64,000 nt of DNA from Candidatus Magasanikbacteria bacterium CG1_02_32_51 (GTDB lineage: Bacteria > Patescibacteriota > Patescibacteriia > Magasanikbacterales > UBA922): NCBI GenBank assembly GCA_001871435.1, contig MNVC01000019.1:218-64217 (forward strand). Reading direction: 5' to 3'. Positions within the stretch are counted from its first letter, which is position 1; every line of letters begins with the position of its first letter. Under the pieces are notes generated by a model. That model saw nothing but the letters and a program-made list of their open reading frames with translations. It made no database searches and had not been told where the DNA came from. The position numbers and the translations under genes are program-made. Positions 7,495-44,177 of this stretch are shown in pieces.

Positions 7495-7530
7495 CGGCGA
7501 AGCACGGCGTAGGATCTTTCTTAAAGTATA
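7495..7530 (-). promoter_or_regulatory. start-codon-abutting GC hairpin motif (member 1 of 5), upstream of ftsQ
   Basis: In mRNA sense: gaucc-uacgccgugcuucgccggcuuc-aggau, immediately 5' of the start. Near-identical to 14703-14738. Confidence 0.5.
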
Positions 7531-7579
7531 TTTTTTAGTAAATTTTTGCTATGTTATAAATAATTATTTTGTTTGGCAG

Positions 7580-7693
7580 ATTAATCCGCCCACAGCCCAA
7601 GGCGTGCACGGCAAGGCGGACAAGGTTTAATTCCTCGTCAGCTTCAGCCAGAGGACTGATCAGCCTTGGGCACGATGCTGCTAGGTAGTTCAT
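7580..7693. repeat. GC-rich structured repeat element, copy B (inverted; in the sense orientation of, and upstream of, ftsQ)
   Basis: Reverse complement of 64-177 at about 98% identity. Confidence 0.85.
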
Positions 7694-7786
7694 TTATAAA
7701 TGTTTTTAAGCAGGAAACCTGTCTGCCGACAGGCAAGGATCCCTCATTCAATTTCTTCGTACCTCAGAAATTTCTTTCAGGATAAA

Positions 7787-8812
7787 TTAAAAACCACGTT
7801 TTTTGTTTCTGATAGTTTCAATAACCCAAGTAATCCAATACTTTGGTGAAATTACAAAATCTTGACAAGGTAATAAATTTTTTTGAAAACCACCAAAACC
7901 TTTTTTAAAGTGCGTAATACCTTTGAAAGGATGACTAATAGGAGCATCATTTGGTGCTATTCCCCAAAAATTGTAATACTTCATTCCCCTATTTTTGGCT
8001 TCTTGAATAGCTTTCCATTGTAAGAGATAAGAAGTTGGTATTTTTTTATCTTGATTTAATGAAGCACCATGACGATAAGCTGCAGAATTGCCATAAAAAT
8101 AAACAACTGCTGATGAGTCTAATTTGGGATTATTAGATAAATAAGCCTTTAAAACAGATACTTCGTCATCTTTTTGAAAAGCAACAAATTCTTTTTCAAC
8201 ATAAAAATTGGAAAAACGTGTAAAATTATGTTTCTTGGCTGTATAATCATGCAAAACATTGAATTCTTCCAAAGCTTTTTTATCATTAGAAAAAACAATT
8301 TTTACTTTTTCTCTAAGACATCTATTGATTAGATTACGATGATTTTTGTTCATGTTGACTAATATTTCTTCCTCACTTTTTTCTAGATCCAAAAGCCAAG
8401 TTATCTCAGCCAAAACATGAGTAGGAGATTTTCTAAAACCAATGTTTTTGTAAGTATTTCTAGTTTCTTCTGTATCATCTATAAAAGGAGAAACTCTAAT
8501 AAAATTATAATATTCTTTTTTGGCTTTCTCCTCTAAAAAATTTATAAATAATTTTAAAATGTTTTCATAATCTTTACTAATTACAGGTCCATAAGGCGCA
8601 AAAAGAAAATTACCACGTTTGGCGTGTACACTCAAAATCAAACTGCCAGCAATCAATTTATCAGATTCATATATACCTATGAGCCATTGCTTTTCATTTA
8701 TAGATTCATAAAATTCACCATACTTGTAAGACTGTGTCATAAGCACGAATTTTTGTTGTGAAAGAAATTGTTCCCATTCTTCTTTATTTTGTATTTCTTT
8801 TACTTTGTACAT
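7787..8812 (-). CDS. FemAB family peptidoglycan bridge aminoacyltransferase, paralog 2
   Basis: GNAT-like FemAB architecture; FKKGFGG motif near the C-terminus; 341 aa. Confidence 0.65.
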   Translation of the reverse strand: MYKVKEIQNKEEWEQFLSQQKFVLMTQSYKYGEFYESINEKQWLIGIYESDKLIAGSLILSVHAKRGNFLFAPYGPVISKDYENILKLFINFLEEKAKKEYYNFIRVSPFIDDTEETRNTYKNIGFRKSPTHVLAEITWLLDLEKSEEEILVNMNKNHRNLINRCLREKVKIVFSNDKKALEEFNVLHDYTAKKHNFTRFSNFYVEKEFVAFQKDDEVSVLKAYLSNNPKLDSSAVVYFYGNSAAYRHGASLNQDKKIPTSYLLQWKAIQEAKNRGMKYYNFWGIAPNDAPISHPFKGITHFKKGFGGFQKNLLPCQDFVISPKYWITWVIETIRNKKRGF

Positions 8813-8814
8813 AA

Positions 8815-9807
8815 TTATTCTTTAGTACTGTGACCAACTATGGTCCTTTTTCTTAATTTTTGAATTAGCAAAAATATTTTATATTTGAAAGGATTCAAGA
8901 TTATTTCCAAGGGTTTTGGATAACATTCCAATTTGCCATTAAATCCTGCTTTGAACTTGGCTACACCGTCTAGAGGGTGAGATTTTTTCCAAGAATAATT
9001 ATGATGGGAATTTGTATCATTACTTCCCTTCTCTGCTGGTGGAGCCATACCCCAAAAGTCATAAACTTTACAGTCTAACTTTTTGGCTAATTTTATAATT
9101 TCAAATTGATTTAGATAAGGTCCCATGAGATTACGCTGGCTATTGGAAGATGCTCCAAACAAATAATACATAGTTTCATTGTATTTGAACACAATAGCTG
9201 AAGATAAGACATCATCTTCAAAGTAAGTAGTTAACTGATAAACACTATCTAATTTTAATAATTTTTCTATATAATTTTTATCATGACTTTTGATACTGTT
9301 TCTTTCTGTAGTCATTTCATTCAATTTCCAATATTTATTTATATCTTTTTCAATTTTACAAACAACACCCTTTTTTATGGCTAAGTTTATGTTGTATCTA
9401 GTTTTGGAATGCATCTCAGCCAAAATTTCATCTTCAGTTTTTTTTAGATCCAAAAGCCATGTGCATTCTGGTTGTCTATTTTTTACTTCTTTATACATAA
9501 AATATTTTGGCATTGTATAATTCAATCTTTCTACACGCCAAAATACAAAATTATTTATTTTCAAAAATTTACTTATTTCATCTAATAATTCTTCAGAAAA
9601 AGAAACTCTAGGAATATAAATAAATTTAAACCCTAAAATATTAGAGGTTATTACACCTTGAAATTGATTTTTTACATTATCTTTAGAAATAAATTCATAC
9701 CTTATTAATTTTCTTCCTGTATCTTTCAAAAATTCACCATATTCCCACGATTGCAAAAATTCTTCTTTAGTAGTCCATTCTTCTTTTTTAAAAACTTCTT
9801 TTATCAT
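8815..9807 (-). CDS. FemAB family peptidoglycan bridge aminoacyltransferase, paralog 1
   Basis: KFKAGFNGKL motif; similar length and organisation to the downstream paralog. Confidence 0.6.
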   Translation of the reverse strand: MIKEVFKKEEWTTKEEFLQSWEYGEFLKDTGRKLIRYEFISKDNVKNQFQGVITSNILGFKFIYIPRVSFSEELLDEISKFLKINNFVFWRVERLNYTMPKYFMYKEVKNRQPECTWLLDLKKTEDEILAEMHSKTRYNINLAIKKGVVCKIEKDINKYWKLNEMTTERNSIKSHDKNYIEKLLKLDSVYQLTTYFEDDVLSSAIVFKYNETMYYLFGASSNSQRNLMGPYLNQFEIIKLAKKLDCKVYDFWGMAPPAEKGSNDTNSHHNYSWKKSHPLDGVAKFKAGFNGKLECYPKPLEIILNPFKYKIFLLIQKLRKRTIVGHSTKE

Positions 9808-14691: not shown

Positions 14692-14702
14692 ATAGGTTTT
14701 AT

Positions 14703-14738
14703 CATCCTGAGCCGGCGAAGCACGGCGTAGGATCTTTC
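14703..14738 (-). promoter_or_regulatory. start-codon-abutting GC hairpin motif (member 2), upstream of serS
   Basis: In mRNA sense: gauccu-acgccgugcuucgccggcuc-aggaug, 12 nt before the ATG. The 10-mer tcatcctgag recurs inverted at 14846-14855, overlapping the stop codon of the next gene. Confidence 0.5.
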
Positions 14739-14846
14739 TTAAATATATAAATGTTTTTAATTAATAAATCTGGAATTGATTCTAAAAAATGTTTTTGAAT
14801 AAATAAAAGTAATCAGGGTCTACAGATCCTTCATCGTATTCTCGAC

Positions 14847-15926
14847 TCAGGATGACATTTCATTGATAACTTCTCTTATTTCTGGTAATAAATTTATTAA
14901 AAATTCTTTGTTTTTTTCTATAAAATCATAATTTGTAAGATCATCCAAATTAACAAATTTAGTTTCCATTACCTCTGTATCATTTATTTCACCTACACTT
15001 TCTATATATTTACAAACAAAAGGTATAAGATAAACTTGATAGTTAAAATTTTTACCAGTACTCGCCACTACCTGTATTTCGTTTAGTTGTTTTATAATTT
15101 CTACTTTACAAGCTGTTTCTTCTAGAATTTCACGTTTTACATTTTCTTCTAATTTTTCACCATATTCCATACTGCCACCTGGCAATTCCCATTTACCATG
15201 AAATCTAGGATTATGAGGATCATTGCGTTTGGAGATAAGCATCTTACCTTCTTTGATAATTATTCCTACTGGTACGACAATATGTTTGTTAGAAAAATGG
15301 TCAGCCAAAAAATATTTTATTTTATTTAGAGCTATACCTCTGTGAGAAGTTGCATTTTTTTCTACAGTAGTTAATTCAGAATAAGTTTTATTCAAATCTG
15401 GTAAATAAAATATTGGATCATAACCAAAACCATTAGCGATCCTTTCTTCTTTTAAAACTTTTCCTTTTCTTTCTCCATAAGCTAAAAACAGTTCTTCTTT
15501 ATCTGGATTGTACAAAGCTGATACAGCTTTGAAACTGGCAGTTAATTTTTCTTCAGGAATGTCTTTTACTTTTTCTAGCAAAACTTTTCTTCTGTCTTCG
15601 GCATCTTTACCAATACGAGCACTAATCACTCCAGGCCAACCATCAAGAGTATCAACAAAAATCCCTCCGTCGTCTGCCAGAGACATTAGACCTGTTTTGT
15701 CAGCATAATATTTGGCTTTTAGAATGGCATTACCTTCAATAGTTTTTTCACTTTCTTCTGGTTCTTCTGGAATATTTTTCAAATCTTTTAGAGACAAAAA
15801 ATCAAAATTCAAATCATGTAAAAATTTTTTTATTTCTGTAAATTTTCCTTCATTGGTAGTAGCAATTAGAATTTGCCTTTTTTCTTCTAACATAATGGAA
15901 TTTATATATTTGGCGTAGTTTGACAA
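14847..15926 (-). CDS. fusion of non-canonical purine NTP pyrophosphatase (Ham1/RdgB) and a NUDIX hydrolase
   Basis: N-terminal ILIATTNEGKFTEIKKF and a Ham1-like body. The C-terminus carries a Nudix box (GKWELPGGSMEYGEKLEENVKREILEETA). Confidence 0.7.
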   Translation of the reverse strand: MSNYAKYINSIMLEEKRQILIATTNEGKFTEIKKFLHDLNFDFLSLKDLKNIPEEPEESEKTIEGNAILKAKYYADKTGLMSLADDGGIFVDTLDGWPGVISARIGKDAEDRRKVLLEKVKDIPEEKLTASFKAVSALYNPDKEELFLAYGERKGKVLKEERIANGFGYDPIFYLPDLNKTYSELTTVEKNATSHRGIALNKIKYFLADHFSNKHIVVPVGIIIKEGKMLISKRNDPHNPRFHGKWELPGGSMEYGEKLEENVKREILEETACKVEIIKQLNEIQVVASTGKNFNYQVYLIPFVCKYIESVGEINDTEVMETKFVNLDDLTNYDFIEKNKEFLINLLPEIREVINEMSS

Positions 15927-15960
15927 ATTTCGCTTCTCTCAATTTGTCATTCCTTATATT

Positions 15961-24413: not shown

Positions 24414-24424
24414 ATATTTATATT

Positions 24425-24446
24425 GAGCGAAGCGAAATATCTTTCC
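24425..24446 (-). promoter_or_regulatory. start-codon-abutting GC hairpin motif (member 3), upstream of proS
   Basis: In mRNA sense: ggaaagauauuucgcuucgcucaauau, 12 nt before the ATG. Confidence 0.45.
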
Positions 24447-24984: not shown

Positions 24985-25080
24985 AAAAATAGGTCTATAT
25001 AAGCATAAACACAGCTTTTGAAAGCTATGTTTATTCTACACTATTTTAGAAGCATTGGCAAGCTATTTTTTTTGGCTAAA

Positions 25081-31169: not shown

Positions 31170-31571
31170 TCAGTTCTTAGACACAGGCTTGTACGAGGAG
31201 TGATGATGGACGATTTTCCACTCATCCTCAGCCATTCTCTTGGCAAGGAAAGTGAAGCGAGCTTCTACAACCAGTTGTCCATCGTGGGTGGAAAAATCGT
31301 AGAACCCAGCGAGGAGAACAATCTCTTCACCAAACTCCTGAACGACCAATTCTCTAATAATTCCTCGCGGACTACTAGGCATGAAGTCCTCCTGGAAGTA
31401 CTCCAAGGCACCACTCACACCCCTCTTGAGATCACCCGACATAGTTGGTAGAAAAGTGGCATCATCCGCGTACAACGCGGCGATGACATTTGGTTCATCA
31501 CTATGTAAGGCCTCAAGCCATTTATCTAGGTACTTGTGCATTTTGCCACCTTTCTCAGAAGTAAATACCAA
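31170..31571 (-). CDS. NTF2-like/SnoaL-like small protein (DUF4440 or SgcJ/EcaC-type) on a GC-rich foreign-looking cassette
   Basis: 133 aa; about 50% GC coding sequence against a 28% GC genome; fold assigned from its pattern of hydrophobic and acidic residues. Confidence 0.5.
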   Translation of the reverse strand: MVFTSEKGGKMHKYLDKWLEALHSDEPNVIAALYADDATFLPTMSGDLKRGVSGALEYFQEDFMPSSPRGIIRELVVQEFGEEIVLLAGFYDFSTHDGQLVVEARFTFLAKRMAEDEWKIVHHHSSYKPVSKN

Positions 31572-31604
31572 GGATGGATTCCTTGAAAATTTCTGAGCAT
31601 GCGC

Positions 31605-31636
31605 ATTAGAATAATACTATAGCAATCCACTGTCAA
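31605..31636 (-). promoter_or_regulatory. near-consensus sigma70-type promoter (TTGACA-N17-TATTCT / N14-TATTAT) carried on the GC-rich cassette
   Basis: Minus-sense ttgacagtggattgctatagtattattct, about 35 nt upstream of the cassette gene's ATG. Confidence 0.4.
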
Positions 31637-31760
31637 CCACCAAACCCTTGACAAAGTAAAATTTAATGTTCTATTTTAAATTCATCTAGTACTAATGATG
31701 AAGTGTAATAAAAAACACTAATTTTTAAAAAATAGTGTTTTATATATAAACAATTTGAAT

Positions 31761-33329
31761 TTATAAATCATTTCCAGTATATGACAAATTAAAACTTTTA
31801 TTAATCAAAGGAAAATCAGGCACCACATTATGAACCCCTGCATGTCCAAGTAAAGACCAATTTATAAAGGAAGGATCACGTGGTGCGACTCTCTCAATAA
31901 TACCATCAGCATCTGTAGTAACAAAATAAAGTATCTCTCCACGCCAACCCTCGACTACACTTATAGCAACAGCATTTTTTTTGAACGGAGAAATATTTTT
32001 TGCACAAATAAGTCCATCGGGTAATATTTTTAGAGCGTCTTTAATAATTTTTATTGATGCATAGACTTCTTTGATGCGAACATAAAATCTAGCATATGCA
32101 TCCCCACTTTGTTCGATTGCAATTTTATCAAGTTCCAATTCATCATAAGCCGCATAAGGGAAATCAACTCGCGCGTCATCAGTGATACCAACTGCTTTTG
32201 CGACAATCCCTGTTGCACTATGTTCTATGATAGTCTCTAGTGACAATTCACCAGTACCTTTGAGACGATTTAGGAGTGATGAACTATTTTCAGCAATATG
32301 AATAATTTCATTAAAATCTTTTAGTATAGAAGTAAGCTCTTCGGATAATTTTTCCTTTTCTCTATTTTCTATGTCCTTGGAGATTCCACCACAAACATTG
32401 ATTCCACGCAAGAACCTGTTTCCTGTCAACCGCTCATTGATTTGCATAATCATTTCTCGTAACCGTGCGCTGTGTGCACCACCAAAATTAAATCCAGTAT
32501 CAAGCATCATGGCACCAATGTCGCCAAAATGATTGGCTAATCGTTCAAGTTCCGCATATATAACACGCAAATAAGTAGCTCGTTTCGGTGGTATGGTGTC
32601 TGATAGTTGTTCTAGAGCCTGACAAAATGCCAATGAATGACTAAATGAACTGTCTCCAGAGATTTTTTCAGAAAGACGGATTTTTTCATTAAGTGCCAAA
32701 GTTTCAAATAATTTTTCACTGCCTTTATGGGTAAATCCAAGACGAGATTCAAGTAAAACTATTTCTTCACCCGCAACGCTAAATCGAAAATGACCAGGTT
32801 CAATAATGCCGGCATGGATTGGACCAACTGGAATTTCATATATTCCTTCACCATCAACTTTTTGAAATTGATATGTTCCGCTTGCTTCTTGTGGTCTGTT
32901 ATTCCAATCAAAATCCTTTCGGAGTGGATAAATATCTGTTGGCCAATTCTCATGAAGAATAATCCCTCGTGAATCCTGATGACCAACTGGATCTAGTCCA
33001 AAAAATGTTTTGATTTTTCTTTCATAATTCCAGGCATTATGAATAAGAGGCGAAAGTGATGGAAATTGTTCAGTATTTTTTAATTCAATAAATGGGATAA
33101 TAAATCCATGTTCGTGAGGTATCCCAAAGACATACCAGATCTTAAAACATCCATTTTCTTTTCTCTCATCAGTTGCCGTAATGAATTTAAGTTGAAGATT
33201 TTTATTATTTCGTAAGTCAGAAGCGAATGCAAGTATATTGGAAACAGAAACTTCAAAAATAACAACATTTTCATAAATAGTTAATTTTTCCTTTCCAGAA
33301 AAATATTGTTTTATTTTTTCTATGTTCAT
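31761..33329 (-). CDS. fused NuoC-NuoD-like / group 4 [NiFe]-hydrogenase large-subunit homolog lacking all Ni-Fe-ligating cysteines
   Basis: PVGPIHAGIIEPGHFRF and LGFTHKGSEKLFE match large-subunit motifs. The N-terminal L1 position reads KISGDSSFSHSLAF (canonical RxCGxCxxxH) and the C-terminal reads RDPSFINWS (canonical DPCxxCxxH). Confidence 0.7.
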   Translation of the reverse strand: MNIEKIKQYFSGKEKLTIYENVVIFEVSVSNILAFASDLRNNKNLQLKFITATDERKENGCFKIWYVFGIPHEHGFIIPFIELKNTEQFPSLSPLIHNAWNYERKIKTFFGLDPVGHQDSRGIILHENWPTDIYPLRKDFDWNNRPQEASGTYQFQKVDGEGIYEIPVGPIHAGIIEPGHFRFSVAGEEIVLLESRLGFTHKGSEKLFETLALNEKIRLSEKISGDSSFSHSLAFCQALEQLSDTIPPKRATYLRVIYAELERLANHFGDIGAMMLDTGFNFGGAHSARLREMIMQINERLTGNRFLRGINVCGGISKDIENREKEKLSEELTSILKDFNEIIHIAENSSSLLNRLKGTGELSLETIIEHSATGIVAKAVGITDDARVDFPYAAYDELELDKIAIEQSGDAYARFYVRIKEVYASIKIIKDALKILPDGLICAKNISPFKKNAVAISVVEGWRGEILYFVTTDADGIIERVAPRDPSFINWSLLGHAGVHNVVPDFPLINKSFNLSYTGNDL

Positions 33330-33330
33330 A

Positions 33331-34776
33331 TTACTTATAGTATAAAGTGGCGTTATGGATTAATACCTGCAAAAATGGTGGCTGATAAAAACTCAAAACT
33401 AACACCAGAATAAGAAGTATTAGAGGAGGAAGAATGAGCCAAATACTTTCTTTTTCTTGTTTCATTTCAGACGGTTTTTCTCCAAAAACCATAGCAGAAG
33501 CGTGTTTAAAAAATCCAATAAAAACAATAGCAGTAAGCAAAATTGCCGTAATGCCAATGACTGGATGTGTAGTAATTCCGGCAGAAAAAGTAAACAATTT
33601 AGTAAGAAATATCCCAAAAGGCGGTGCGCCGGTAATAGCAAAAAATCCAATCAAAAATAATATACTGGTTATTGGTAATGCCTTGAGTGCACCTTTGACA
33701 TTAGCAATTTTTGCTGAATGATATTTGAGTAAAAAATTTCCTGACAAGAAAAAGAGAGCAGATTTAGTTAAAGAATGATAAATAGTATGAAGGATAGCTG
33801 CCATGACACCTAGCCCGCCAAACCCAAATCCAAGCGCAATAATTCCCATGTTTTCAATACTTGAATAGGCAAGCAAACGCTTGTAACTTTTTTGACTAAG
33901 AATAATGAGAGCGGAGATTAGAATTGAAAATGTACCAAAAACAATAAGCAAAGTCTGAGAAAAAGATTGACCAATCACAGAGTCAGTAATAATTTTAAAT
34001 TTTAAGACAATAACAAGTGCGACATTAAGTAATACTCCAGACAAAAGTGCGCTGATTGGTGCTGGGGCTTTGCTATGGGCATCAGGTAACCAGGTATGCA
34101 TCGGAGCAAGTCCAACTTTCGTTCCATAACCAATCAACACAAAAACAAAAGCTATTTTGGCAAGTAAGGGATCCATATGAATGGCATTTGTGGTGAGCAT
34201 ATGCCAACTAATAAACCCATTTCCAAGTGAGGGATCAATAGAAGTAAAATACAAAAGTGTACCAAAAAATCCCAACAGTAAACCGATAGAATTGATAATC
34301 AAGTATTTCCAAGCTGCCTCCATGGCTGAAGATTTGTTATAAAAACTAATAAGAAAAGCAGTGGAAAGTGTGGTTGCTTCAATAGCAATCCATGCAAAAA
34401 TTGGACTACTTGATGAAATAGCTAGAAACATTGCCCCTAAGAACAGATTAAGTAAAGTAAAATACTGTTTGACGCGGGTAAATCCGATAATATTATTAGC
34501 GGTTTCTTTTCTCAAATAAGGAATGGAATAAGCGACTGTGGCAAACCCGACACAGGAAATAATCAGCATCAATAAAGCACCAAGTGCATCAACGGAAAAA
34601 AATGCAAATGGAGAATAGTCTCCCGAGAGAGCAACCTTGAAAGCAACCACAAATGACTCTATAAGTGCAACTGCTGAGGCACTAATTGAAACACATTCAA
34701 CAGTAATACGATGTTTTGCTAGAATTGCGATCAAAGATGCGATCACTAATGATGAAATGATAATAATAAATTCCAT
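33331..34776 (-). CDS. NuoM/NuoN/MrpD-like proton-pumping antiporter subunit
   Basis: About 14 TM helices in a complex I antiporter-like pattern. Confidence 0.65.
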   Translation of the reverse strand: MEFIIIISSLVIASLIAILAKHRITVECVSISASAVALIESFVVAFKVALSGDYSPFAFFSVDALGALLMLIISCVGFATVAYSIPYLRKETANNIIGFTRVKQYFTLLNLFLGAMFLAISSSSPIFAWIAIEATTLSTAFLISFYNKSSAMEAAWKYLIINSIGLLLGFFGTLLYFTSIDPSLGNGFISWHMLTTNAIHMDPLLAKIAFVFVLIGYGTKVGLAPMHTWLPDAHSKAPAPISALLSGVLLNVALVIVLKFKIITDSVIGQSFSQTLLIVFGTFSILISALIILSQKSYKRLLAYSSIENMGIIALGFGFGGLGVMAAILHTIYHSLTKSALFFLSGNFLLKYHSAKIANVKGALKALPITSILFLIGFFAITGAPPFGIFLTKLFTFSAGITTHPVIGITAILLTAIVFIGFFKHASAMVFGEKPSEMKQEKESIWLILPPLILLILVLVLSFYQPPFLQVLIHNATLYYK

Positions 34777-34780
34777 AGTA

Positions 34781-35428
34781 TTAGTCTTTTAAATGTTTCA
34801 TGGTGCTGGTATCAAGCGATCCAAAATGTCGATAAATCATGGAAATAAAGACAGTAGAAATCACCAACCAAATAAAAATATCAAATATAATGCCAAATTG
34901 AAGCATAGGTGATTGTTCGAGGCCGGCAAAAATTGCAAAGGCAACGATACTATTTTCTAGAGAAAGAATTCCAACAGCTTGTGAAAGAGCGTCTTTACGG
35001 TTGATGACCAAGAAAAGAGAAATAAAAATTGCTGAAAGCGCAAGTGATAATAAGGCTTGATGAGCCGGAATAATATTCGTGAGAGATAAGAATTTTTGAG
35101 AGTGCGCAATGGCGGTAAATCCAGCAAGAACGATGAGTGTGAGTGGCAAATTCAAATAAGTACTTACTGAAAATGTTAATTTATGTTTTTGAATCAACCT
35201 GAAAAAAAATACTGACGCCAAAATAACTTTGATAACCAGTGTCACTAAAACTACAAAAAGAAGAAAAAAGCTATTTGTTTCTAAAAAAGAAGTAAACAAT
35301 ATCAATGTGATAATCAAAGATTGAATACTATACGCAATAACAGCTCCAAAATTTTTCTTTGCGAGATGCAAATAAAAAATAGATAAAAATAATATCCCAA
35401 GTAGAAACTGTAAGAAAAATATGTTCAT
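34781..35428 (-). CDS. HyfE-like small membrane subunit (NuoK-like repeats)
   Basis: 215 aa, multi-TM; GILSLENSIVAFAIFAGLE resembles NuoK/HyfE. Confidence 0.4.
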   Translation of the reverse strand: MNIFFLQFLLGILFLSIFYLHLAKKNFGAVIAYSIQSLIITLILFTSFLETNSFFLLFVVLVTLVIKVILASVFFFRLIQKHKLTFSVSTYLNLPLTLIVLAGFTAIAHSQKFLSLTNIIPAHQALLSLALSAIFISLFLVINRKDALSQAVGILSLENSIVAFAIFAGLEQSPMLQFGIIFDIFIWLVISTVFISMIYRHFGSLDTSTMKHLKD

Positions 35429-36390
35429 AGTATTTGCATTTGAATAAGACCGATTGCTAGTGCGCTCAAAATAAGAGAAGTAATTAATAAGTCAGGCAAT
35501 CTAAAAAATCTAAACTTGGCCATAGTAGATTCAATAATTCCGACTATAGCGCACAAAATAAATATTTTTATAAGAAGAATAATAATACCTATAACAATCG
35601 CTTGTGTATCAACACTATGGGCGATACCATAAGGGAAAAACAAATTTGCTCCTAAGGCTGCAAAAATAAAAAATTTATTGGCCGCCGCCCATTCCATTAA
35701 CGCCAATCTTTTACCTGAATATTCCAAAATCATCGCTTCATGAATCATAGTTAATTCTAAATGAGTCGCTGGATTATCAAAAGGGAATCTTCCTGTTTCA
35801 GCAAGTAACACAATAAAAAATCCAATAAAGGCTAATATCGTAGACAAAAAGAATTGAGTACTTAGTAACATTCCAGCGTTTGAAATTACAAAAAGATTAG
35901 TGGTGCCAATACTGAGCGCAGTCGTAAAAAGAGCTAGAATAAGACCTCCTTCAGCCAGCGCTGAAATAGTCATTTCTCGACTAGAGCCAAATCCACCAAA
36001 CGCGCTTCCTGTGTCCATGCCCGCAAGTGCTAGAAAAAATGTACCCAATGCAAGCGTATAGACAACGACTAAGAGATCACCAGTTAGTGTATTTTTTAAA
36101 AAAGAAGCAAAAAGTGGAATACTTGCTCCAATAACAATAGTGGTAGCAAAAATAATAAATGGCGCAAAACGAAAGACCCATGACGCGTCAGTACTTATTA
36201 CTTCATCTTTATGCAAAAGTTTCCATATGTCTTTGTATGGTTGAAAAATACTTGCTCCAACACGATTTTGAAGTTTCGCTTTTATTTTTTTTATGATGCC
36301 CATACACAATGGCGATAGTGCTGGCACACAGATGAGTTGTAATATCCAAATAAAAATCATCATATAGTTATTACGATAAAAATAGAGCAA
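35425..36390 (-). CDS. NuoH/HycD-like membrane subunit
   Basis: KAKLQNRVGASIFQPYKDIWKLLHKDE matches the NuoH N-terminal signature. Confidence 0.7.
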   Translation of the reverse strand: MLYFYRNNYMMIFIWILQLICVPALSPLCMGIIKKIKAKLQNRVGASIFQPYKDIWKLLHKDEVISTDASWVFRFAPFIIFATTIVIGASIPLFASFLKNTLTGDLLVVVYTLALGTFFLALAGMDTGSAFGGFGSSREMTISALAEGGLILALFTTALSIGTTNLFVISNAGMLLSTQFFLSTILAFIGFFIVLLAETGRFPFDNPATHLELTMIHEAMILEYSGKRLALMEWAAANKFFIFAALGANLFFPYGIAHSVDTQAIVIGIIILLIKIFILCAIVGIIESTMAKFRFFRLPDLLITSLILSALAIGLIQMQIL

Positions 36391-38416
36391 TTGCTACCGC
36401 GATTAAGATATAGAAAACATACATATTGATACTCCCACTTTGGATCGCTTTGGCACGCACTGATAGTGTGGTAATAAATTTATTGAGTGGTAGATAAAAA
36501 TATAATCGATAAATATCTCGTGTACGCAGTGTCACAGTTCTAGATTTTGGAAAATATCTTATTTTGGAATCACGATATTCAATTTCATTTTGAATACTTG
36601 GCCGAAGGATACCCGCAAAAATAAGAATAATTGAACGAGCAAACCCAGTAGCAGTAATTTCCATACGCGGTGTAAGATTAGTGCCACAGTCCCATGTCGC
36701 ACCGATTTTAGTTTTTTGATTTCTATTGATAACAAATTTGACGAGTAGTACGACAATGAACAGTGCAAGAATAAGGAAAACAATCAGTGCTAGAGCAGAG
36801 ACCGATCCAAAATTATTTGGTGCAATAAAATTAATTTTGGAAGATAAAATAGGTGGCAATGAAATATTGCGAAATACAGTGAGATGGGTACCAATATTTA
36901 TAAATAAAGATCCTAAATATCCTGAAAATATACCAAACAAAAGACAGCATAATGCTAGAGCTCCCATTCCTATAAGTTGTGAAAGTGAGGATTCTTTTGC
37001 ATGAGCTACTTCTGTGCTTCTTGGACGAGCCAAAAATGTCGCACCAAAAGCTTTTACAAAACAAGCTAAAGCAAGTCCACCCGTTATGGCCAGAGCGCCG
37101 GTTGCTAATACAAAAGTAGATTTTACAAGTATATTGACAGATGTCATTCCTTGTAAAAGTGTTTGAAAAGTCAACCACTCACTAAAAAAACCATTGAATG
37201 GTGGCAAGGCTGATATTGCCATAGAACCAACAAGAAAAAAGAATGCTGTTTGAGGCATATATTTAATCAATCCACCATATGCTTCCATGTTGCGTGTATG
37301 TGTTTGGTTGATAACTGATCCGGCACTCAAAAACAACAAGGACTTAAAGGTTGCATGATTGAGGGTGTGAAAAAGAGCAGCCCCAAGACCAAAAAGCGCA
37401 AGTAGTGTGTTACCAAGTGATATAAAAACAAGTGCACTACCAAACCCCAATAAAATAATTCCGATATTTTCAATACTATGATAGGCCAAAAGTTTTTTTA
37501 TATCGTGTTCAGTAAGCGCGTAGAGAACTCCAAGTAAAGCTGATAATGAACCAATAATCAGAATAGTAATTCCCCACCATAAAGGGATTGGTTGGAGTAT
37601 ATCCAAAAAAAGTCTAATCATCATATAAATTCCAGTTTTTATCATTACTCCAGACATAAGCGCTGAGACATGCGAAGGAGCTGCTGGATGAGCTACTGGA
37701 AGCCAAATATGAAATGGAATAATACCAGCTTTAGTTCCAAATCCAATAAGGGCTAAGATAAAGATAGTATTTTTGATAAATACAGGAATAGCAACGGCTT
37801 GGGCTTGGATTGATTCAAAATCAAAAGAGTTTGTAAATTTATACATGAGCAAAAATGCTAAGATTATAAAGGCGGTACCCACATGTGTCATAACGAGGTA
37901 GAGAAATCCTGCCTTGGTATTATTCACATCATTATGATCATACACAACGAGAAAATATGATGCGATAGACATTATTTCCCATGCAATCAAAAAGAAAAGT
38001 CCGTTTGAAGCTGTTACTACCATGAGCATACCTATGATGAATAAATGATAAAAAAATCCAAGTGCACTAATGCTATATTTTTTATAATAATGTTTGATAT
38101 ATCCAATTCCGTATAATGAACAAAAAAGAGTAATAAGAGAAATCACAAAAATAAAAAAGGCAGACAGCTGATCAATATGGAACGAAAAAGAAAGAAGCGG
38201 AAAAACTGATGAATAAGCCACAAAAGATAAATTACCAGTAAAAAAAGCACTTATCGAAAAAAATATTCCCCACAAAGAACCGATGATTGCAAAGAAACTC
38301 TGCCATCCATTTGCCAATTCGTCTTTTTTTCTAAAAAACAAAGATCCAATTGCTCCCAAAGAATACAGCAAAAGTAATAAAAAAAATCCTGACTCAGTTG
38401 TTAAAAGGTTTACCAT
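36371..38416 (-). CDS. NuoL/HyfB-like antiporter subunit (long)
   Basis: 681 aa with about 16-18 TM helices; MrpA/NuoL-type. Confidence 0.65.
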   Translation of the reverse strand: MVNLLTTESGFFLLLLLYSLGAIGSLFFRKKDELANGWQSFFAIIGSLWGIFFSISAFFTGNLSFVAYSSVFPLLSFSFHIDQLSAFFIFVISLITLFCSLYGIGYIKHYYKKYSISALGFFYHLFIIGMLMVVTASNGLFFLIAWEIMSIASYFLVVYDHNDVNNTKAGFLYLVMTHVGTAFIILAFLLMYKFTNSFDFESIQAQAVAIPVFIKNTIFILALIGFGTKAGIIPFHIWLPVAHPAAPSHVSALMSGVMIKTGIYMMIRLFLDILQPIPLWWGITILIIGSLSALLGVLYALTEHDIKKLLAYHSIENIGIILLGFGSALVFISLGNTLLALFGLGAALFHTLNHATFKSLLFLSAGSVINQTHTRNMEAYGGLIKYMPQTAFFFLVGSMAISALPPFNGFFSEWLTFQTLLQGMTSVNILVKSTFVLATGALAITGGLALACFVKAFGATFLARPRSTEVAHAKESSLSQLIGMGALALCCLLFGIFSGYLGSLFINIGTHLTVFRNISLPPILSSKINFIAPNNFGSVSALALIVFLILALFIVVLLVKFVINRNQKTKIGATWDCGTNLTPRMEITATGFARSIILIFAGILRPSIQNEIEYRDSKIRYFPKSRTVTLRTRDIYRLYFYLPLNKFITTLSVRAKAIQSGSINMYVFYILIAVAIALFLS

Positions 38417-38417
38417 A

Positions 38418-38960
38418 TTATTTTAATTTTGTTTGTTTGCTATCCACCGTCTCAAGAATATTAAGAAGACCATAGAGAATCATTTTTGGTGATGGTGGAT
38501 CTCCAGGGATGCAATAGTTCACGGGCACTACAGTCTCAACTCCATCTAATACTGCATATGAACCCTTATATATACCACCATTTATTGCATCATCACCGAC
38601 TGCGACGACAATTTTTGGATCAGGTGTTGCCTCATAGGCACTTTGTACAGCTTTCGCCATATTTCGTGTCATTGGTCCAGTTATCAAAAGCATATCAGCA
38701 TGTCTTGGTGAGGCAACAAAATGAATACCAAAACGTTCAATATCATAAAAACTATTGGACAATGCAACCATTTCTTGTTCGCACGCGTTATCAGATCCAG
38801 CATCAATCTGTCTAATAGCTAAAGATCCTTTAAATAACTTCTTTACTTTATCTTGTATTTTTTCACCAATTTCAATAAAATCCATTGATATAAAATCCTT
38901 TTTAGATAAGGAAATTACATTATTGGGTGTTTTAAATATTTTTAAAAAAAATTTAAACAT
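38418..38960 (-). CDS. NuoB/HycG-like small-subunit homolog retaining at most 2 of the 4 [4Fe-4S]-ligating cysteines
   Basis: ASPRHADMLLITGPMT is the NuoB signature. Canonical CCxxE reads NACEQE, GxCxxxGG reads GDDAINGG (no Cys), and CPP reads CIPGDPP. Confidence 0.7.
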   Translation of the reverse strand: MFKFFLKIFKTPNNVISLSKKDFISMDFIEIGEKIQDKVKKLFKGSLAIRQIDAGSDNACEQEMVALSNSFYDIERFGIHFVASPRHADMLLITGPMTRNMAKAVQSAYEATPDPKIVVAVGDDAINGGIYKGSYAVLDGVETVVPVNYCIPGDPPSPKMILYGLLNILETVDSKQTKLK

Positions 38961-39598: not shown

Positions 39599-41026
<1,428 letters not shown>

Positions 41027-42142: not shown

Positions 42143-43636
42143 TTATTTTATTTTAACAAAATCCTCACAAGCTTCTTTCAAATCTGCAATAATATTATCA
42201 TCCCACTCCCCTTTTCTAATTTTTCCTAACAATGATTGTCTACTAACTTTTACAAAATCCAAAAACTTTTTTTCCATTTCAGTCATATCTACAATAGCAA
42301 CATCATCAAAATAGCCATTGTCTACAGCAAAGATAGCAACTACTTGATCTTCTATTTCCATTGGACTATATTGTGGTTGTTTCATAAGTTCTACTACACG
42401 AGCACCTCTATCCAATTGTTTTTTTGTTTCTACATCAAGATCACTGGCAAATTGAGCAAAAGCTTCAAGTTCACGATATTGTGCCAAAGCCAACTTGATT
42501 TTTCCAGAAACTTTTTTCATTGGTTTGGTTTGAGCTGCCCCACCAACACGAGAGACTGAAATACCAATATTTAAAGCTGGGCGAATACCTTTGTAAAACA
42601 AATCAGTCTCTAGGAAAATTTGACCATCAGTAATTGAAATTACATTGGTAGGAATATAAGCAGTTACATCCCCTGCTTGTGTTTCAATAATAGGCAAAGC
42701 AGTGATAGATCCACCACCGTGTTCTTTGTTAAGATTACAAGCACGTTCCAAAAGACGGGAGTGAAGATAAAAAACATCTCCAGGATAAGCTTCACGACCT
42801 GGTGGACGTCTAAGAAGAAGTGAAATTTCACGATAAGCCCAAGCTTGTTTAGTAAGATCATCATAGACAATAAGTACATCTTGACCTTTGTCAGCAAAAT
42901 ATTCAGCCATAGATACTCCAGCATAAGGAGCAATAAAAGACATAGCAGCAGGATCAGAAGCGCCAGCCACTATGATGGTAGTATATTCCATAGCCCCATT
43001 TTCTTCCAACTTTGCTACAAGACGAGCTACTTTTGATTCTTTTTGTCCAATAGCAACGTAGATACATTTCATGTTTTTGCCTTTTTGATTGATAATAGCA
43101 TCAATAGCAATTGCAGTTTTACCAGTTTGACGATCACCAATAATAAGTTCACGTTGTCCACGACCAATTGGAATCATGGCATCAATAGCTTTGATACCAG
43201 TTTGGACTGGCTCAGACACCGGTTGACGACTCATCACGCCAGGAGCAACTTTTTCTACAGGATAAAAATCTTTGGTATTCACTTCACCTTTGCCATCAAT
43301 AGGCTGACCTAAAGCATTTAATACTCTACCTATTACTTGTTCACCTACTGGTACTGACAAAATTCTTCCTGTTCTTTTTACAGTGTCACCCTCTTTTATT
43401 TTTTCATAATCACCCAAAATCATAACACCTACAGTTTCTTCTTCCAAATTCAAAGCTACACCCATAATACCACCTGGAAATTCCAGCATTTCTTGAGATT
43501 GACACTTAGTCAAACCATTTATGCGTGCAATACCATCCCCTACTTCAATAACATTACCAACTTCTTCTACTTCCACAGTTTTTTGAAAAGCAGAAATATG
43601 TTTCTTTAGTTCTTCGATTACTTGATTTGTAGACAT
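42143..43636 (-). CDS. atpA: F1 ATP synthase alpha subunit
   Basis: [10 protein letters not shown]-loop; 497 aa. Confidence 0.95.
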
Positions 43637-43649
43637 ATATTTTTCGATA

Positions 43650-43680
43650 ATCTTGAGCGGAGTGAAAGATCTGTAGACCC
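43650..43680 (-). promoter_or_regulatory. start-codon-abutting GC hairpin motif (member 4), upstream of atpA
   Basis: In mRNA sense: gggucuacagaucuuucacuccgcucaagau, 13 nt before the ATG. gggtctacagatc also occurs at 14816-14829 and, as a variant, at the window end. Confidence 0.45.
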
Positions 43681-43751
43681 TTCGAACGCTTCTTTTTATT
43701 TAAATGTTTTAATTTATTTAATAAATAGAAATAATACATTATTAACTCCAT

Positions 43752-44138
43752 TTATGTAGTTAAACTTTTCTTCAAATTAATCAACTGCATTCTCACACTT
43801 GCATCCAAAATTCTATCTTCCAATTTGACTCTTACCCCACCAATCAGACTTTCATCTATTTTTTCCACAGCTTCAACTTGCTTGGCAAAAGATTCTTTTA
43901 TTTTTTCTACAATATCTTTGTCAAGTTTTCTAGCGGATGTAATTTCTATTTCAATTATTCCTTGTTTTTTCTTAGCAATTTTTTCAAATTCTACAATAAT
44001 ATTGTTACCTTGTTTTAATCTTCTATTTTTTGATAAAAATTTTACAAAAGCCTCTAGTGTTGTATCAAGATCTTTTTCAACCAAACCAATCGTCAATTCA
44101 TATAAGGCTTCTGCAAATTGTCTATTAGAAATTTTCAT
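43752..44138 (-). CDS. atpH: F1 ATP synthase delta (OSCP) subunit, short form
   Basis: 128 aa; its position between atpF and atpA, plus helical N-terminal domain (AEALYELTIG). Confidence 0.55.
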   Translation of the reverse strand: MKISNRQFAEALYELTIGLVEKDLDTTLEAFVKFLSKNRRLKQGNNIIVEFEKIAKKKQGIIEIEITSARKLDKDIVEKIKESFAKQVEAVEKIDESLIGGVRVKLEDRILDASVRMQLINLKKSLTT

Positions 44139-44148
44139 ATATTTATGT

Positions 44149-44177
44149 CATCCCGAGAGAAGCGAGGGATCTTTCCC
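44149..44177 (-). promoter_or_regulatory. start-codon-abutting GC hairpin motif (member 5), upstream of atpH
   Basis: In mRNA sense: gggaaagaucccucgcuucucucgggaugac, 10 nt before the ATG. Confidence 0.45.

What the first reader, a model, noticed from the sequence alone, without database searches (positions are those of the whole stretch)
7495..44177. Conserved GC hairpin motif placed immediately 5' of the start codon of five genes (ftsQ, serS, proS, atpA, atpH)
All five sites are listed in mRNA sense, with the start codon following within about 1-13 nt. The ftsQ site reads gaucc-uacgccgugcuucgccggcuuc-aggau. The serS site reads gauccu-acgccgugcuucgccggcuc-aggaug. The proS site reads gauauu-ucgcuucgcuca-auau. 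The atpA site reads aucuu-ucacuccgcuc-aagau. The atpH site reads gauccc-ucgcuucucuc-gggaug. The stems co-vary (atcct/aggat, atccc/gggat, atatt/aatat, atctt/aagat) while the loop keeps a CGCUUCGC-like core and a GGAAAGAUC 5' flank. The stems differ in sequence yet always form a 5-6 bp helix next to the initiation codon, which is the signature of a functional RNA structure. The motif could occlude the ribosome-binding region or act as a site for RNase or an RNA-binding protein. Two aaRS genes and two ATP synthase genes share it.
Basis: seen in the sequence. Interest (0 to 1): 0.7.

Follow-up and report, generated by a model that had tools for sequence, protein, structure and literature searches.

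The report
REP-like hairpin repeats near start codons
The five hairpins are real, but they are copies of a short palindromic DNA repeat (a REP-like element) scattered through this and many other bacterial genomes; in this small-genome bacterium the copies tend to sit just before start codons, and they are probably not a dedicated translational switch.

Summary
All five hairpins exist as described, on the minus strand, 6-14 nt before the start codons of ftsQ, serS, proS, atpA and atpH. They are far beyond chance. The window (a Candidatus Magasanikbacteria contig, a Shine-Dalgarno-less CPR bacterium) holds at least nine copies. Three are in the opposite orientation: one supplies the stop codon of rdgB, and one pairs with a forward copy to form a 72-nt palindrome before def. 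A metagenome scan found the same 27-nt unit, AG-ATYYY-TCGCTNCGCTC-RRRAT-GACA, in over 120 contigs with GC 0.28-0.70. In those contigs 136 of 137 stems are perfectly Watson-Crick, and the unit occurs as singles, inverted dimers and tandem arrays beside unrelated housekeeping genes, with no start-codon bias. On the opposite strand it reads TGTC-AT..GA-GCGNAGC-GA..AT, which is a tagged palindrome carrying the extra-stable d(GCGNAGC) mini-hairpin. This resembles the CGTC/TGTC-tagged REP superfamily. Close relatives lack the serS copy, whereas the atpA and atpH copies persist in 6 of 7 relatives with compensatory stem changes. The start-codon proximity is real in this genome (6 of 9 copies, P about 2e-6) but specific to this lineage. 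My verdict is a REP-like dispersed repeat, with a few copies possibly co-opted. I found no evidence for a regulon-wide RNA switch.

The parts
7481..7517 (-). Long-loop copy before ftsQ: AG ATCCT acgccgtgcttcgccggcttc AGGAT TGTG. An inner stem GCCG/CGGC supports the apical GCTTCGC. It lies 14 nt before the likely GTG start at 7470.
   Evidence: near-identical to the serS copy
14700..14735 (-). Long-loop copy before serS, 12 nt before the ATG at 14691. The tag reads GATA.
   Evidence: (R2 21.5 bits). Orthologous copies in L001 and L004 carry compensatory changes; the copy is absent in L002, L003 and L008.
14816..14857 (+). Copy in the opposite orientation to the genes (GGGTCTAC AG ATCCT tcatcgtattctcgactc AGGAT GACA). 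It lies on the 3' end of rdgB-NUDIX and supplies the codons ..SS and the TGA stop.
   Evidence: R2 26.9 bits. L001 has the empty site GAAA|TGTAGAC, and the 33-nt insert is flanked by an ACA repeat.
15921..15953 (+). ACAAATT-stem subfamily copy (TGACAAATT tcgcttctctc AATTTGTCA TTCC) in the rdgB 5' region, reversed relative to the gene, 28 nt before the ATG at 15892.
   Evidence: L001 and L008 have the same copy plus a forward partner that the window has lost.
24416..24442 (-). Short copy before proS: AG ATATT tcgcttcgctc AATAT, 6 nt before the ATG at 24413.
   Evidence: R2 23 bits; orthologous copy in L004
43646..43680 (-). Short copy before atpA with the 5' flank GGGTCTAC, which is a remnant of an inverted partner: AG ATCTT tcactccgctc AAGAT. 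It lies 13 nt before the ATG at 43636.
   Evidence: Conserved in 6 of 7 relatives, with the stem varying between ATCTT/AAGAT and ATTTC/GAAAT.
44146..44172 (-). Short copy before atpH: AG ATCCC tcgcttctctc GGGAT GACA, 11 nt before the ATG at 44138. It is an almost perfect match to the cross-phylum consensus.
   Evidence: R2 45 bits, E 3e-9; present in 6 of 7 relatives
54900..54931 (-). Reversed copy (read on the plus strand: GGGATGACAAAAT gagcgaaggcga ATTTTGT). It is the left half of a 72-nt palindrome before def.
   Evidence: R1 32 bits on the minus strand; the pair folds at -36.7 kcal/mol
54944..54974 (+). Forward ACAAATT-stem copy (ACAAATT tcacttcgttc AATTTGT CAATCC), 17 nt before the real def start at 54986.
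   Evidence: (the Pfam match starts at residue 26 of the long ORF)
14745..14785 (-). Longer shared upstream modules TTAGAATCAATT (14774-14785) and AAAACATTTATAT (14745-14757). They recur before the atp copies (44210-44221 and 43698-43710), so the repeated unit in this clade extends beyond the hairpin.

Best explanation
The five hairpins are copies of a short, dispersed palindromic DNA repeat of the REP type, a miniature and probably non-autonomous repeated element. They are not a purpose-built translational operator. The unit is about 27 nt, or 36-42 nt with an extended inner stem: AG-AT YYY-TC-(N C TNC G N')-TC-RRR AT-GACA. Read on the other strand it is TGTC-AT RRR'-GA-GCGNAGC-GA-YYY' AT-CT. 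That is a 4-nt tag followed by a palindrome whose first two pairs are A-T and T-A, two tandem G.A mismatches, and the d(GCGNAGC) mini-hairpin at the tip.

What is shown: the element is multi-copy and confined to intergenic DNA, except where it clips a stop codon. It occurs in both orientations, as single units, inverted dimers that fold into long hairpins, and tandem arrays. It is gained or lost between close relatives. The same unit occurs in contigs of very different base composition next to unrelated housekeeping genes.

What is inferred: it spreads and is maintained at the DNA level as a single-stranded hairpin, either through a HUH/Y1-type enzyme or another unidentified activity, or through template switching that keeps the arms complementary. 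Where a copy lands in a 5' leader or an intercistronic spacer it is co-transcribed and forms a weaker RNA hairpin 6-17 nt before the start codon. In this Magasanikbacteria clade the copies are biased towards that position, and the two atp copies are old and conserved. A minority of copies have therefore probably been co-opted, for example as intercistronic mRNA boundary or stability elements. That co-option is a secondary use and is not proven.
For: There are nine copies in 64 kb, three of them reversed, and all are intergenic or clip a stop codon. One copy provides the rdgB stop codon, and L001 has the empty site. The def copies in the window and the rdgB copies in L001 and L008 form inverted pairs. 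The serS copy is present in the window, L001, L004, L006 and L016, but absent in L002, L003 and L008 (83-85% SerS identity) and in the other Magasanik loci.

It gave 137 matches in 120 loci with GC 0.28-0.70, and 136 of 137 have fully complementary YYY/RRR arms although the pattern did not require this. The unconstrained inner pair is G-C 107, A-T 21, C-G 6 and non-Watson-Crick 3. The unconstrained 3' tag is C in 126 of 130 and A in 115 of 130. Inverted dimers fold at -45 to -89 kcal/mol and tandem arrays occur. The 148 neighbouring ORFs fall into 156 Pfam families, none recurring more than three times, and no transposase recurs. There is no start-codon association globally. Model R2, built only from metagenome copies, recovers the window copies and gives only two weak hits (E 0.46 and 0.84) in the 24 spirochaete control loci.

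GCGNAGC is the extraordinarily stable mini-hairpin DNA, and its RNA counterpart is much weaker (PMC13037366). CGTC/TGTC-tagged REPs have A-T first pairs, unpaired tails, dimers and no linked transposase, and REPs are known to supply stop codons (PMC3733652). No SD signal was found upstream of 855 ORFs. The window contains no transposase.
Against: In this genome the placement is clearly non-random: 6 of 9 copies lie within 21 nt upstream of a start and face it (P about 2e-6). Classical REPs sit near the 3' ends of genes. The atpA and atpH copies are retained at the same position and orientation in 6 of 7 relatives down to 67% AtpH identity, with compensatory stem changes, inside an otherwise conserved spacer. 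That looks like purifying selection on those copies. No mobilising enzyme was identified. Mobility is inferred from presence/absence and one empty site, not observed directly. The breadth across phyla is inferred from GC range, two plasmid hits (Phocaeicola and Calothrix) and the Magasanik loci, not from a taxonomic census. The stem and loop geometry does not match the four published CGTC families exactly.
Confidence: 0.75

Rival explanations
1. This is a dedicated cis-regulatory RNA hairpin. The structure forms in the mRNA leader next to the start codon and controls initiation, either by occluding the ribosome landing site or as a site for an RNase or RNA-binding protein, and so coordinates serS, proS, ftsQ and the atp genes.
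For: The sense-orientation copies lie 6-17 nt before ten different genes in the window and its relatives. The positional bias has P about 2e-6. The atpA and atpH copies are conserved, with compensatory stem changes and a conserved loop. Head-to-head copies in divergent spacers of L006 each face a gene.
Against: Three of nine window copies are antisense to the adjacent gene or sit on a stop codon. The serS copy is absent in relatives with 83-85% SerS identity, and the rdgB site changes orientation between relatives. Only 2 of 5 aaRS genes and 2 of 9 atp genes carry it. The same unit is found in unrelated genomes with no link to start codons. G-U pairs are virtually absent. The mRNA-sense hairpins of proS and atpA are predicted at only -0.9 and -1.8 kcal/mol, no better than shuffles, and the more stable fold is on the other strand.
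Confidence: 0.12
2. This is a mobile promoter or leader cassette. The repeated unit is a longer module of about 70-110 nt (TTAGAATCAATT ... AAAACATTTAWAT ... TTAAGAAAG + hairpin) that carries a promoter or transcription start and has been copied in front of unrelated genes. On this view the hairpin is the 5' end of the resulting mRNA and protects it from decay.
For: Exact 12- and 13-mers are shared between the serS, atpH and atpA spacers. The ftsQ and serS copies are alike over about 70 nt. A TAnnnT hexamer lies about 7 nt before the AG of most TTAAGAAAG-type copies, seen by direct reading. This would explain the orientation towards genes and the short distance to the start.
Against: The promoter scan finds nothing beyond shuffled expectation. 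The atpH and atpA copies are inside an operon. The TTAAGAAAG tail also occurs on a reversed copy at a gene's 3' end (L212). The global family has no conserved 5' flank.
Confidence: 0.1
3. This is a split ribosome-binding site. The purine-rich flank (AGGAAAG, GGGAAAG or AAGAAAG) would be a Shine-Dalgarno element that the hairpin brings close to the start codon, as in phage T4 gene 38.
For: A purine-rich flank lies 5' of the stem in 4 of 5 sites, and AGAAAGG would pair with a canonical ...CCUUUCU 16S tail. That pairing rests on my own knowledge.
Against: GGAGG-type words are not enriched upstream of 855 ORFs of this clade. The anti-SD is reported lost in about half of Parcubacteria (PMC9297842). 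The atpA, def and global copies lack the flank. The flank is also part of reversed copies.
Confidence: 0.03
4. This is a double-stranded DNA operator for a dimeric transcription factor that defines a regulon.
For: The architecture is palindromic, and the copies lie near promoter regions.
Against: The arms vary freely while the asymmetric centre and the one-sided GACA tag are conserved, which is the opposite of an operator. Copies also occur at 3' ends, in tandem arrays, and beside unrelated genes in many genomes.
Confidence: 0.03

Closest known systems
CGTC/TGTC-tagged REP superfamily (Di Nocera, De Gregorio & Rocco 2013, PMC3733652). By that paper it includes Neisseria dRS3 repeats and Rickettsia RPE-4 and RPE-6.
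   Same: Both are short extragenic palindromes present in many copies. Both have a 4-nt tag at one end: here TGTC in 88% and CGTC in 9% of 130 copies, and the paper states that CGTC is often TGTC. In both, the first two stem pairs are A-T and T-A, there is a short unpaired tail at the other end, copies are frequently inverted dimers that fold into larger hairpins, no transposase is linked, some copies overlap gene ends, and the family occurs in several phyla. From my own knowledge, the ATTCC...GGAAT arms of many copies recall dRS3 (ATTCCC-N8-GGGAAT).
   Different: The published families have 8-9 contiguous pairs, 4-5 nt loops and a CCA tail. This unit has 5 pairs, a 2x2 mismatch (G.A/A.G on the tag strand), 2 pairs, a 3-nt GNA loop and a CT tail. 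The published dimers are mostly head-to-head, whereas both arrangements occur here. Published REPs lie mostly just after genes, whereas in this genome most copies lie just before start codons. The family has not been reported from CPR bacteria in the papers I could search.
REPIN-RAYT systems (REP doublets mobilised by a single-copy Y1 transposase; PMC3337134 and the RAREFAN preprint listed)
   Same: Both show inverted doublets separated by a short spacer that fold into long hairpins, with singletons that look like decayed doublets. The GGGTCTAC flank of the atpA copy is a remnant of an inverted partner.
   Different: There is no GTAG tag. No RAYT gene was found in the window or next to 120 metagenome copies. 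REPIN families are lineage-specific and vertically inherited, whereas this unit is nearly identical across contigs of GC 0.28-0.70.
Mini-hairpin DNA d(GCGNAGC) (Hirao and co-workers; review PMC13037366)
   Same: The tip of the element on the tag strand is exactly GCGNAGC in 101 of 137 metagenome copies, and N takes all four bases. The variants keep the C-G closing pair and the GNA loop.
   Different: The mini-hairpin is a physical-chemistry motif known from phage single-strand origins. It is not a repeat family. Here it is embedded in a longer palindrome. The window copies before genes carry its complement in the mRNA.
E. coli REP/BIME effects on mRNA (stabilisation of upstream cistrons; ribosome stalling when close to a stop codon), as summarised in PMC12306157
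   Same: This is a plausible secondary effect of co-transcribed copies inside operons such as atpF-atpH-atpA, and of the copy on the rdgB stop codon.
   Different: The known effects act on the upstream gene from a 3' position. Most copies here are 65-80 nt from the upstream stop and 6-17 nt from the next start. This was not tested.

Membership tests
CGTC/TGTC-tagged REP superfamily | Conserved unpaired 4-nt tag (CGTC, often TGTC) at one end of the palindrome | tested here: met
   In positions the search pattern did not constrain, the 3' flank is C in 126 of 130 copies, followed by A in 115 and G in 12. On the other strand that reads TGTC or CGTC. Among the window copies, atpH, the rdgB-stop copy and the def and rdgB5 copies carry it; serS has GATA; proS, atpA and ftsQ have degenerate tags.
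CGTC/TGTC-tagged REP superfamily | [quoted passage not shown] | tested here: inconclusive
   Seven of the nine window copies (found without this constraint) and the copies in relatives start AT...AT. In the metagenome set these positions were fixed by my pattern, so they carry no weight there. The ACAAATT-stem subfamily does not follow the rule.
CGTC/TGTC-tagged REP superfamily | Stem of 8-9 pairs, loop of 4-5 nt, tail fitting CCA | tested here: not met
   The arms are 9 nt but include two non-Watson-Crick positions (5 pairs + GA/GA + 2 pairs). The loop is 3 nt and the tail is CT-N. This would have to be a further family, not one of the four published.
CGTC/TGTC-tagged REP superfamily | Multi-copy, extragenic, often in inverted dimers, no linked transposase | tested here: met
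   Nine copies in 64 kb; dimers and arrays; no recurrent transposase among 148 neighbouring ORFs or among the window ORFs.
CGTC/TGTC-tagged REP superfamily | Preferential location downstream of ORFs (unidirectional or convergent spacers, close to 3' ends) | tested here: not met
   In the window, 6 of 9 copies are start-proximal and only one is at a 3' end. In the metagenome set the placement is mixed.
REPIN-RAYT system | A single-copy RAYT (Y1 transposase) gene flanked by the repeats, and a GTAG tag | tested here: not met
   There is no Y1_Tnp hit in the window or near the metagenome copies, and the tag is TGTC. The rest of the source genome could not be searched, so a distant RAYT is not excluded.
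Cis-regulatory leader RNA | Fixed orientation and position relative to the regulated genes, conserved across orthologues | tested here: inconclusive
   Met for atpA and atpH (6 of 7 relatives). Not met for serS (absent in L002, L003 and L008), rdgB (orientation varies), or the family at large.
Cis-regulatory leader RNA | RNA-type covariation (G-U tolerated) and a fold more stable than composition predicts in the transcribed sense | tested here: not met
   There is 1 wobble among 411 arm pairs and 1 among 137 inner pairs. In the mRNA sense, z-scores are 0.03 to -0.98 for the three short window copies and -2.75 for the long serS copy that was folded.
Any Rfam family | Match to a curated covariance model | tested here: not met
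   The window and 28 loci gave only tRNA at gathering score. Below threshold there were only generic long-hairpin (miRNA precursor) matches to the dimers.

The most novel reading that the evidence does not exclude
In this Shine-Dalgarno-less CPR lineage, a REP-type hairpin may have been domesticated as a start-codon-proximal element. On this reading the copies 6-17 nt before atpH, atpA, serS, proS, ftsQ and def, of which the two atp copies are conserved across relatives with compensatory changes, would set the expression of internal cistrons and housekeeping genes, for example as a 5' boundary or stability hairpin or a ribosome landing aid. The underlying family would be an undescribed cross-phylum REP superfamily built on the d(GCGNAGC) mini-hairpin, with an unknown mobilising activity.
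Probability: 0.2. Interest if true: 0.65.

Novelty: new member of a known kind. Interest (0 to 1): 0.4.

Why it matters
The result replaces an attractive riboregulator reading with a more ordinary one, a REP-like repeat, and it shows how covarying stems with a conserved loop can arise from a DNA palindrome family. It still leaves three points worth a specialist's attention. First, CPR genomes of about 1 Mb are usually considered repeat-poor, yet this one carries about one copy per 7 kb. Second, the same 27-nt unit, with the extra-stable GCGNAGC DNA mini-hairpin at its tip, recurs almost unchanged in contigs of very different composition, which calls for a common mobilising or maintaining activity that is not known for CGTC-type REPs. 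Third, in this clade the copies sit just before start codons rather than after genes, and the atp copies are conserved, which offers a testable case of repeat co-option in an organism that initiates translation without Shine-Dalgarno pairing.

Tried and rejected
- **Rfam:** I scanned the window at gathering score and the regions around the sites at E up to 10, and also 28 metagenome loci. Nothing relevant turned up.
- **Shine-Dalgarno readings:** Both SD sequestration by the GGGAT/AGGAT arm and a hairpin-bridged SD are rejected. SD words are not enriched in 855 upstream regions, and the AT-only stems of proS, atpA and def cannot fit either idea.
- **Mini-uORF:** The ATG of the ATGACA tag could in principle open a mini-uORF (ATG ACA TAA before atpH). 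The frames and lengths are inconsistent between copies and the global 3' flank is not conserved, so I rejected it as a general feature.
- **Motif look-alikes, judged by reading the sequences and from what I know of these motifs:**
  - K-turn or box C/D resemblance of GAUGA: the flanks give G.G and A.A, not sheared G.A.
  - CsrA GGA site: the GGA is in the stem and is not conserved.
  - Hammerhead core: no match.
  - attC: no RYYYAAC/GTTRRRY.
- **Promoter scans:** Scans around three sites gave nothing beyond shuffles.
- **Literature searches:** Searches with the DNA strings and with the peptides the repeat would encode found nothing relevant. A search on CPR plus palindromes also found nothing.
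- **Viral contigs:** A loose pattern gave only chance matches.
- **Source contig look-up:** An exact look-up of the SerS protein failed. The source was later identified through AtpH.
- **Plasmid collection:** Only two single copies were found.
- **Crude ORF-context table:** For high-GC metagenome contigs this was too noisy to use directly. I replaced it with a two-sided control.

Full report
**Observation.** The five sites are in the sequence as quoted, all on the minus strand. The ftsQ and serS copies share the stem ATCCT/AGGAT and the same 21-22 nt loop (ACGCCGTGCTTCGCCGGCT(T)C). That 19-mer occurs twice against zero expected. The proS, atpA and atpH copies have 5-bp stems of different sequence (ATATT, ATCTT, ATCCC) around an 11-nt loop TCRCTYCKYTC. 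Pfam confirms FtsQ, SerS, ProS, AtpA and AtpH. The stem ends 6-14 nt before the start codon. For ftsQ this assumes the GTG at 7470, which aligns with the ATG of the orthologue in L004.

A loop-plus-stem search and a covariance model built from it (R1) found further copies.
- A forward copy lies 17 nt before the true def start at 54986. The Pfam match begins at residue 26 of the long ORF.
- A reversed copy directly upstream of that one pairs with it to form a 72-nt palindrome.
- A reversed copy lies in the rdgB 5' region (15921-15953).
- A reversed copy at 14816-14857 lies on the 3' end of rdgB-NUDIX.

This gives nine copies in 64 kb, six facing a start codon and three not.

**Organism and translation context.**
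- A GTDB scan with SerS places the window in Candidatus Magasanikbacteria (Patescibacteria/CPR).
- AtpH is 100% identical to a protein of Candidatus Magasanikbacteria bacterium CG_4_10_14_0_8_um_filter, on a 65,267-nt contig.
- Upstream of 855 ORFs of this clade, GGAGG-type words are not enriched; only A/T-rich words are.
- A published survey reports loss of the anti-SD motif in about half of Parcubacteria (PMC9297842). There is thus no ribosome-binding sequence for a hairpin to occlude or to bridge.

**Relatives.**
- serS: the element is present upstream in the window, L001 (92% SerS identity), L004 (84%), L006 (73%) and L016 (68%). It is absent in L002, L003 and L008 (83-85%) and in the remaining Magasanik-like loci. 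Where it is present, the differences are largely compensatory. The inner stem GCCG/CGGC becomes GCTG/CAGC in L001. In L004 the outer pair T-A becomes C-G, the inner G-C becomes T-A, and the apical G-C becomes C-G.
- rdgB: the site upstream of the gene holds a reversed copy only in the window. It holds a reversed plus a forward copy in L001 and L008, a reversed plus a standard forward copy in L004, a forward copy in L006, and nothing in L002.
- rdgB stop codon: the window and L004 read GAA ATG TCA TCC TGA ... GGATC TGTAGAC, whereas L001 reads GAA ATG TAG AC. A 33-nt unit (GATCCT...AGGATGACA on its own strand), flanked by an ACA repeat, is present or absent and supplies two codons and the stop.
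- Taken together, these are the behaviours of an inserted repeat.
- atp operon: these copies are stable. In six further atp operons fetched through AtpH homologues, the atpA copy is present in every one that retains an intergenic spacer, so 6 of 7 operons counting the window. It keeps the same GGGTCTACAG flank and the same distance to the ATG. Its stem is either ATCTT/AAGAT or ATTTC/GAAAT, which amounts to two compensatory double changes. Only L211 lacks it, because its spacer is just 10 nt. The atpH copy is likewise present in 6 of 7 operons. It is a dimer with other stems in L211 and is absent in L214.

**The family is not specific to this lineage.**
- Only positions the pattern did not fix count as evidence. 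The three Y/R arm pairs are all Watson-Crick in 136 of 137 matches, against a chance of 1 in 8. The inner pair is G-C 107, A-T 21, C-G 6 and other 3. The next two bases after the pattern are C (126 of 130) and A (115 of 130), and nothing further out is conserved.
- Copies occur as inverted dimers in both arrangements, which fold into long near-perfect hairpins, and as tandem arrays with periods of 33 to 88 nt.
- The 148 ORFs nearest to copies fall into 156 Pfam families of ordinary metabolism, and no family recurs more than three times.
- With at least 400 nt on both sides, 12 of 90 copies have a long ORF starting within 25 nt on the tag side, against 9 of 90 on the other side. Globally there is no association with start codons and no orientation preference.
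- A model built only from these metagenome copies (R2) recovers the window's atpH copy at 45 bits, the rdgB-stop copy at 27, proS at 23, serS at 21.5 and atpA at 19. It gives only two weak hits (E 0.46 and 0.84) in the 24 spirochaete control loci searched.
- Two single copies occur on plasmids of Phocaeicola and Calothrix.

**Anatomy and strand asymmetry.** In the orientation that faces the genes, the unit is AG | AT YYY | TC | N C | T N C | G N' | TC | RRR AT | GACA. That is a 5-bp stem, a 2x2 pyrimidine mismatch, two pairs and a triloop. On the complementary strand the same unit reads TGTC | AT... | GA | GCGNAGC | GA | ...AT | CT. The mismatch becomes a tandem G.A/A.G, and the tip is exactly d(GCGNAGC) in 101 of 137 copies, with N taking all four bases. 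GCGNAGC is the "mini-hairpin DNA" known for extraordinary thermal stability, while its RNA counterpart is much less stable (PMC13037366). The long-loop ftsQ and serS copies carry the same tip on an extra 4-bp stem.

Nearest-neighbour folding does not include the special stability of this loop. It predicts only -0.9 (proS), -1.8 (atpA) and -5.6 (atpH) kcal/mol for the mRNA-sense RNA, no better than shuffles, and about -14 for the long serS form that was folded. In the RNA folds the opposite strand is more stable in every case, by 0.9-2.7 kcal/mol. In the DNA folds the two strands differ by at most 0.4 kcal/mol. Wobble pairs are almost absent: 1 in 411 arm pairs and 1 in 137 inner pairs. Strict Watson-Crick complementarity on both strands is what a DNA palindrome shows, whether through selection for a DNA hairpin, young copies, or arm correction by template switching. 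It is unusual for a functional RNA helix.

**Comparison with what is known.** Di Nocera et al. (PMC3733652) describe two REP superfamilies. The CGTC-tagged one has these features:
- a terminal CGTC that is often TGTC;
- stems that begin with complementary A-T residues in the first two positions;
- a short unpaired tail;
- frequent inverted dimers;
- no associated transposase;
- members in several phyla, including Neisseria dRS3 and Rickettsia RPE-4 and RPE-6.

The paper also notes that REP termini can supply stop codons. The present unit shares the tag, the A-T start, the dimers, the lack of a linked transposase and the stop-codon behaviour. It differs in stem and loop geometry (5 + GA/GA + 2 pairs with a 3-nt loop, against 8-9 pairs with a 4-5 nt loop), in the tail (CT against CCA) and, in this genome, in its placement. 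I therefore file it as REP-like and nearest to that superfamily, as a further family rather than one of the four described. It is not a GTAG/RAYT REPIN, since it has no GTAG and no RAYT was seen, although only the window and the flanks of the metagenome copies could be searched. No Rfam family matches.

**The start-codon bias.** I modelled a 31-nt unit dropped at random, in either orientation, into the window's intergenic DNA. The chance of ending within 21 nt upstream of a start that it faces is 0.056. Six of nine copies do so (P about 2e-6). The bias is therefore real here, and it extends to relatives, where ten different genes have such a copy. Part of the explanation is that the repeated unit in this clade is longer than the hairpin.
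- The TT(T/C)TTAAGAAAG tail is shared by at least ten copies.
- The ftsQ and serS copies are alike over about 70 nt.
- Exact words TTAGAATCAATT and AAAACATTTAWAT recur in the serS, atpH and atpA spacers.

Whole leader modules seem to have been copied. The data do not settle whether this reflects target preference, a promoter-bearing cassette or selection. Promoter scans were uninformative.

**No regulon.** The window encodes five aminoacyl-tRNA synthetases (gltX, serS, lysS, proS, metG) and nine atp genes. Only two of each carry the element.

**Mechanism I commit to.** The element is a REP-type DNA repeat, maintained and spread at the DNA level as a hairpin on the TGTC strand. This is inferred from the strand asymmetry, the strict complementarity, the dimers, the empty site and the cross-genome distribution. 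Copies that lie in leaders are transcribed as a weak hairpin just upstream of the start. Most are probably neutral passengers, tolerated in the few long spacers of a compact genome. The atpH and atpA copies, conserved with compensatory changes inside a conserved spacer, are the best candidates for co-option as intercistronic mRNA elements, which is inferred and not tested. I put about 0.75 on the repeat reading, about 0.12 on a dedicated RNA switch as the primary nature of the element, and about 0.1 on a mobile leader or promoter cassette.

**Limits.**
- The conservation of AGAT, TC...TC and ATGA in the metagenome set was imposed by the pattern.
- The phylum breadth is inferred from base composition and a few named records.
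- ORF calls in high-GC contigs are crude.
- Mobility is inferred from comparisons, not observed.
- The rest of the source genome could not be read.

Noticed in passing
window 138-173 (+) and 7585-7620 (-): A second, unrelated GC-rich palindromic repeat (TCCGCCTTGCCGTGCACGCCTTGGGCTGTGGGCGGA, stem TCCGCC/GGCGGA) occurs twice. One copy lies about 30 nt before the LigT-like gene and the other lies in the femAB-ftsQ spacer. L008 has a shorter version. This suggests more than one hairpin repeat family in this genome.
   Followed up: partly
window 40996-41023: A perfect 28-nt palindrome CAGCCAGAGGCTGATCAGCCTCTGGCTG (predicted -25.8 kcal/mol) lies in the atpG-atpD spacer, about 20 nt before the atpD start. 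It is not related to the repeat studied.
   Followed up: no
window 45117-45143 (-) and 44823-44845 (-); L209-L214: Two other hairpins in the atp operon are conserved in all relatives examined. ACGACTT..AGTCGT lies before atpE (c subunit) and CCAAATCTG..CAGGTTTGG lies after it. The atp spacers of this clade are unusually long and structured.
   Followed up: partly
window, all upstream regions; 855 ORFs of Magasanik loci: There is no Shine-Dalgarno signal. Upstream regions are enriched only in A/T-rich words such as ATTAA, TAAAT and TTAAG. TATAAT-like -10 boxes are visible before several genes.
   Followed up: partly
window 5624-6438: Gene orientation and GC skew both switch here. Genes converge on an 815-nt spacer, and the plus strand is G-rich to the left and C-rich to the right. 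This could be a replication terminus, or simply a coding-strand purine bias.
   Followed up: no
window 60593-61171 (-): A Translin-family protein (PF01997, E 3e-21) is encoded here. From my own knowledge, Translin is a single-stranded DNA/RNA-binding family that is mostly eukaryotic and archaeal and unusual in bacteria.
   Followed up: no
window 31761-38960 (-): A complex-I-like or membrane-hydrogenase-like gene cluster lies here, comprising a fused 30K/49K subunit, NuoH-like, two antiporter-like subunits and a 20K subunit. Its GC content (0.35) is higher than the rest of the window. This is notable for a CPR genome.
   Followed up: no
window 43752-44138 (-): AtpH (delta) is only 128 aa and matches only positions 55-172 of the OSCP profile, so it lacks the usual N-terminal part. 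The same length is seen in all relatives.
   Followed up: no
L094 400-660; L119; L195: In some metagenome contigs the repeat forms tandem arrays, for example a 33-nt period in L094. Read in frame, these would encode 11-residue peptide repeats and are likely to be miscalled as genes.
   Followed up: no
window 24985-25521 and 30845-31760: Two long spacers (537 and 916 nt) have no ORF of 100 aa or more and no Rfam match.
   Followed up: no
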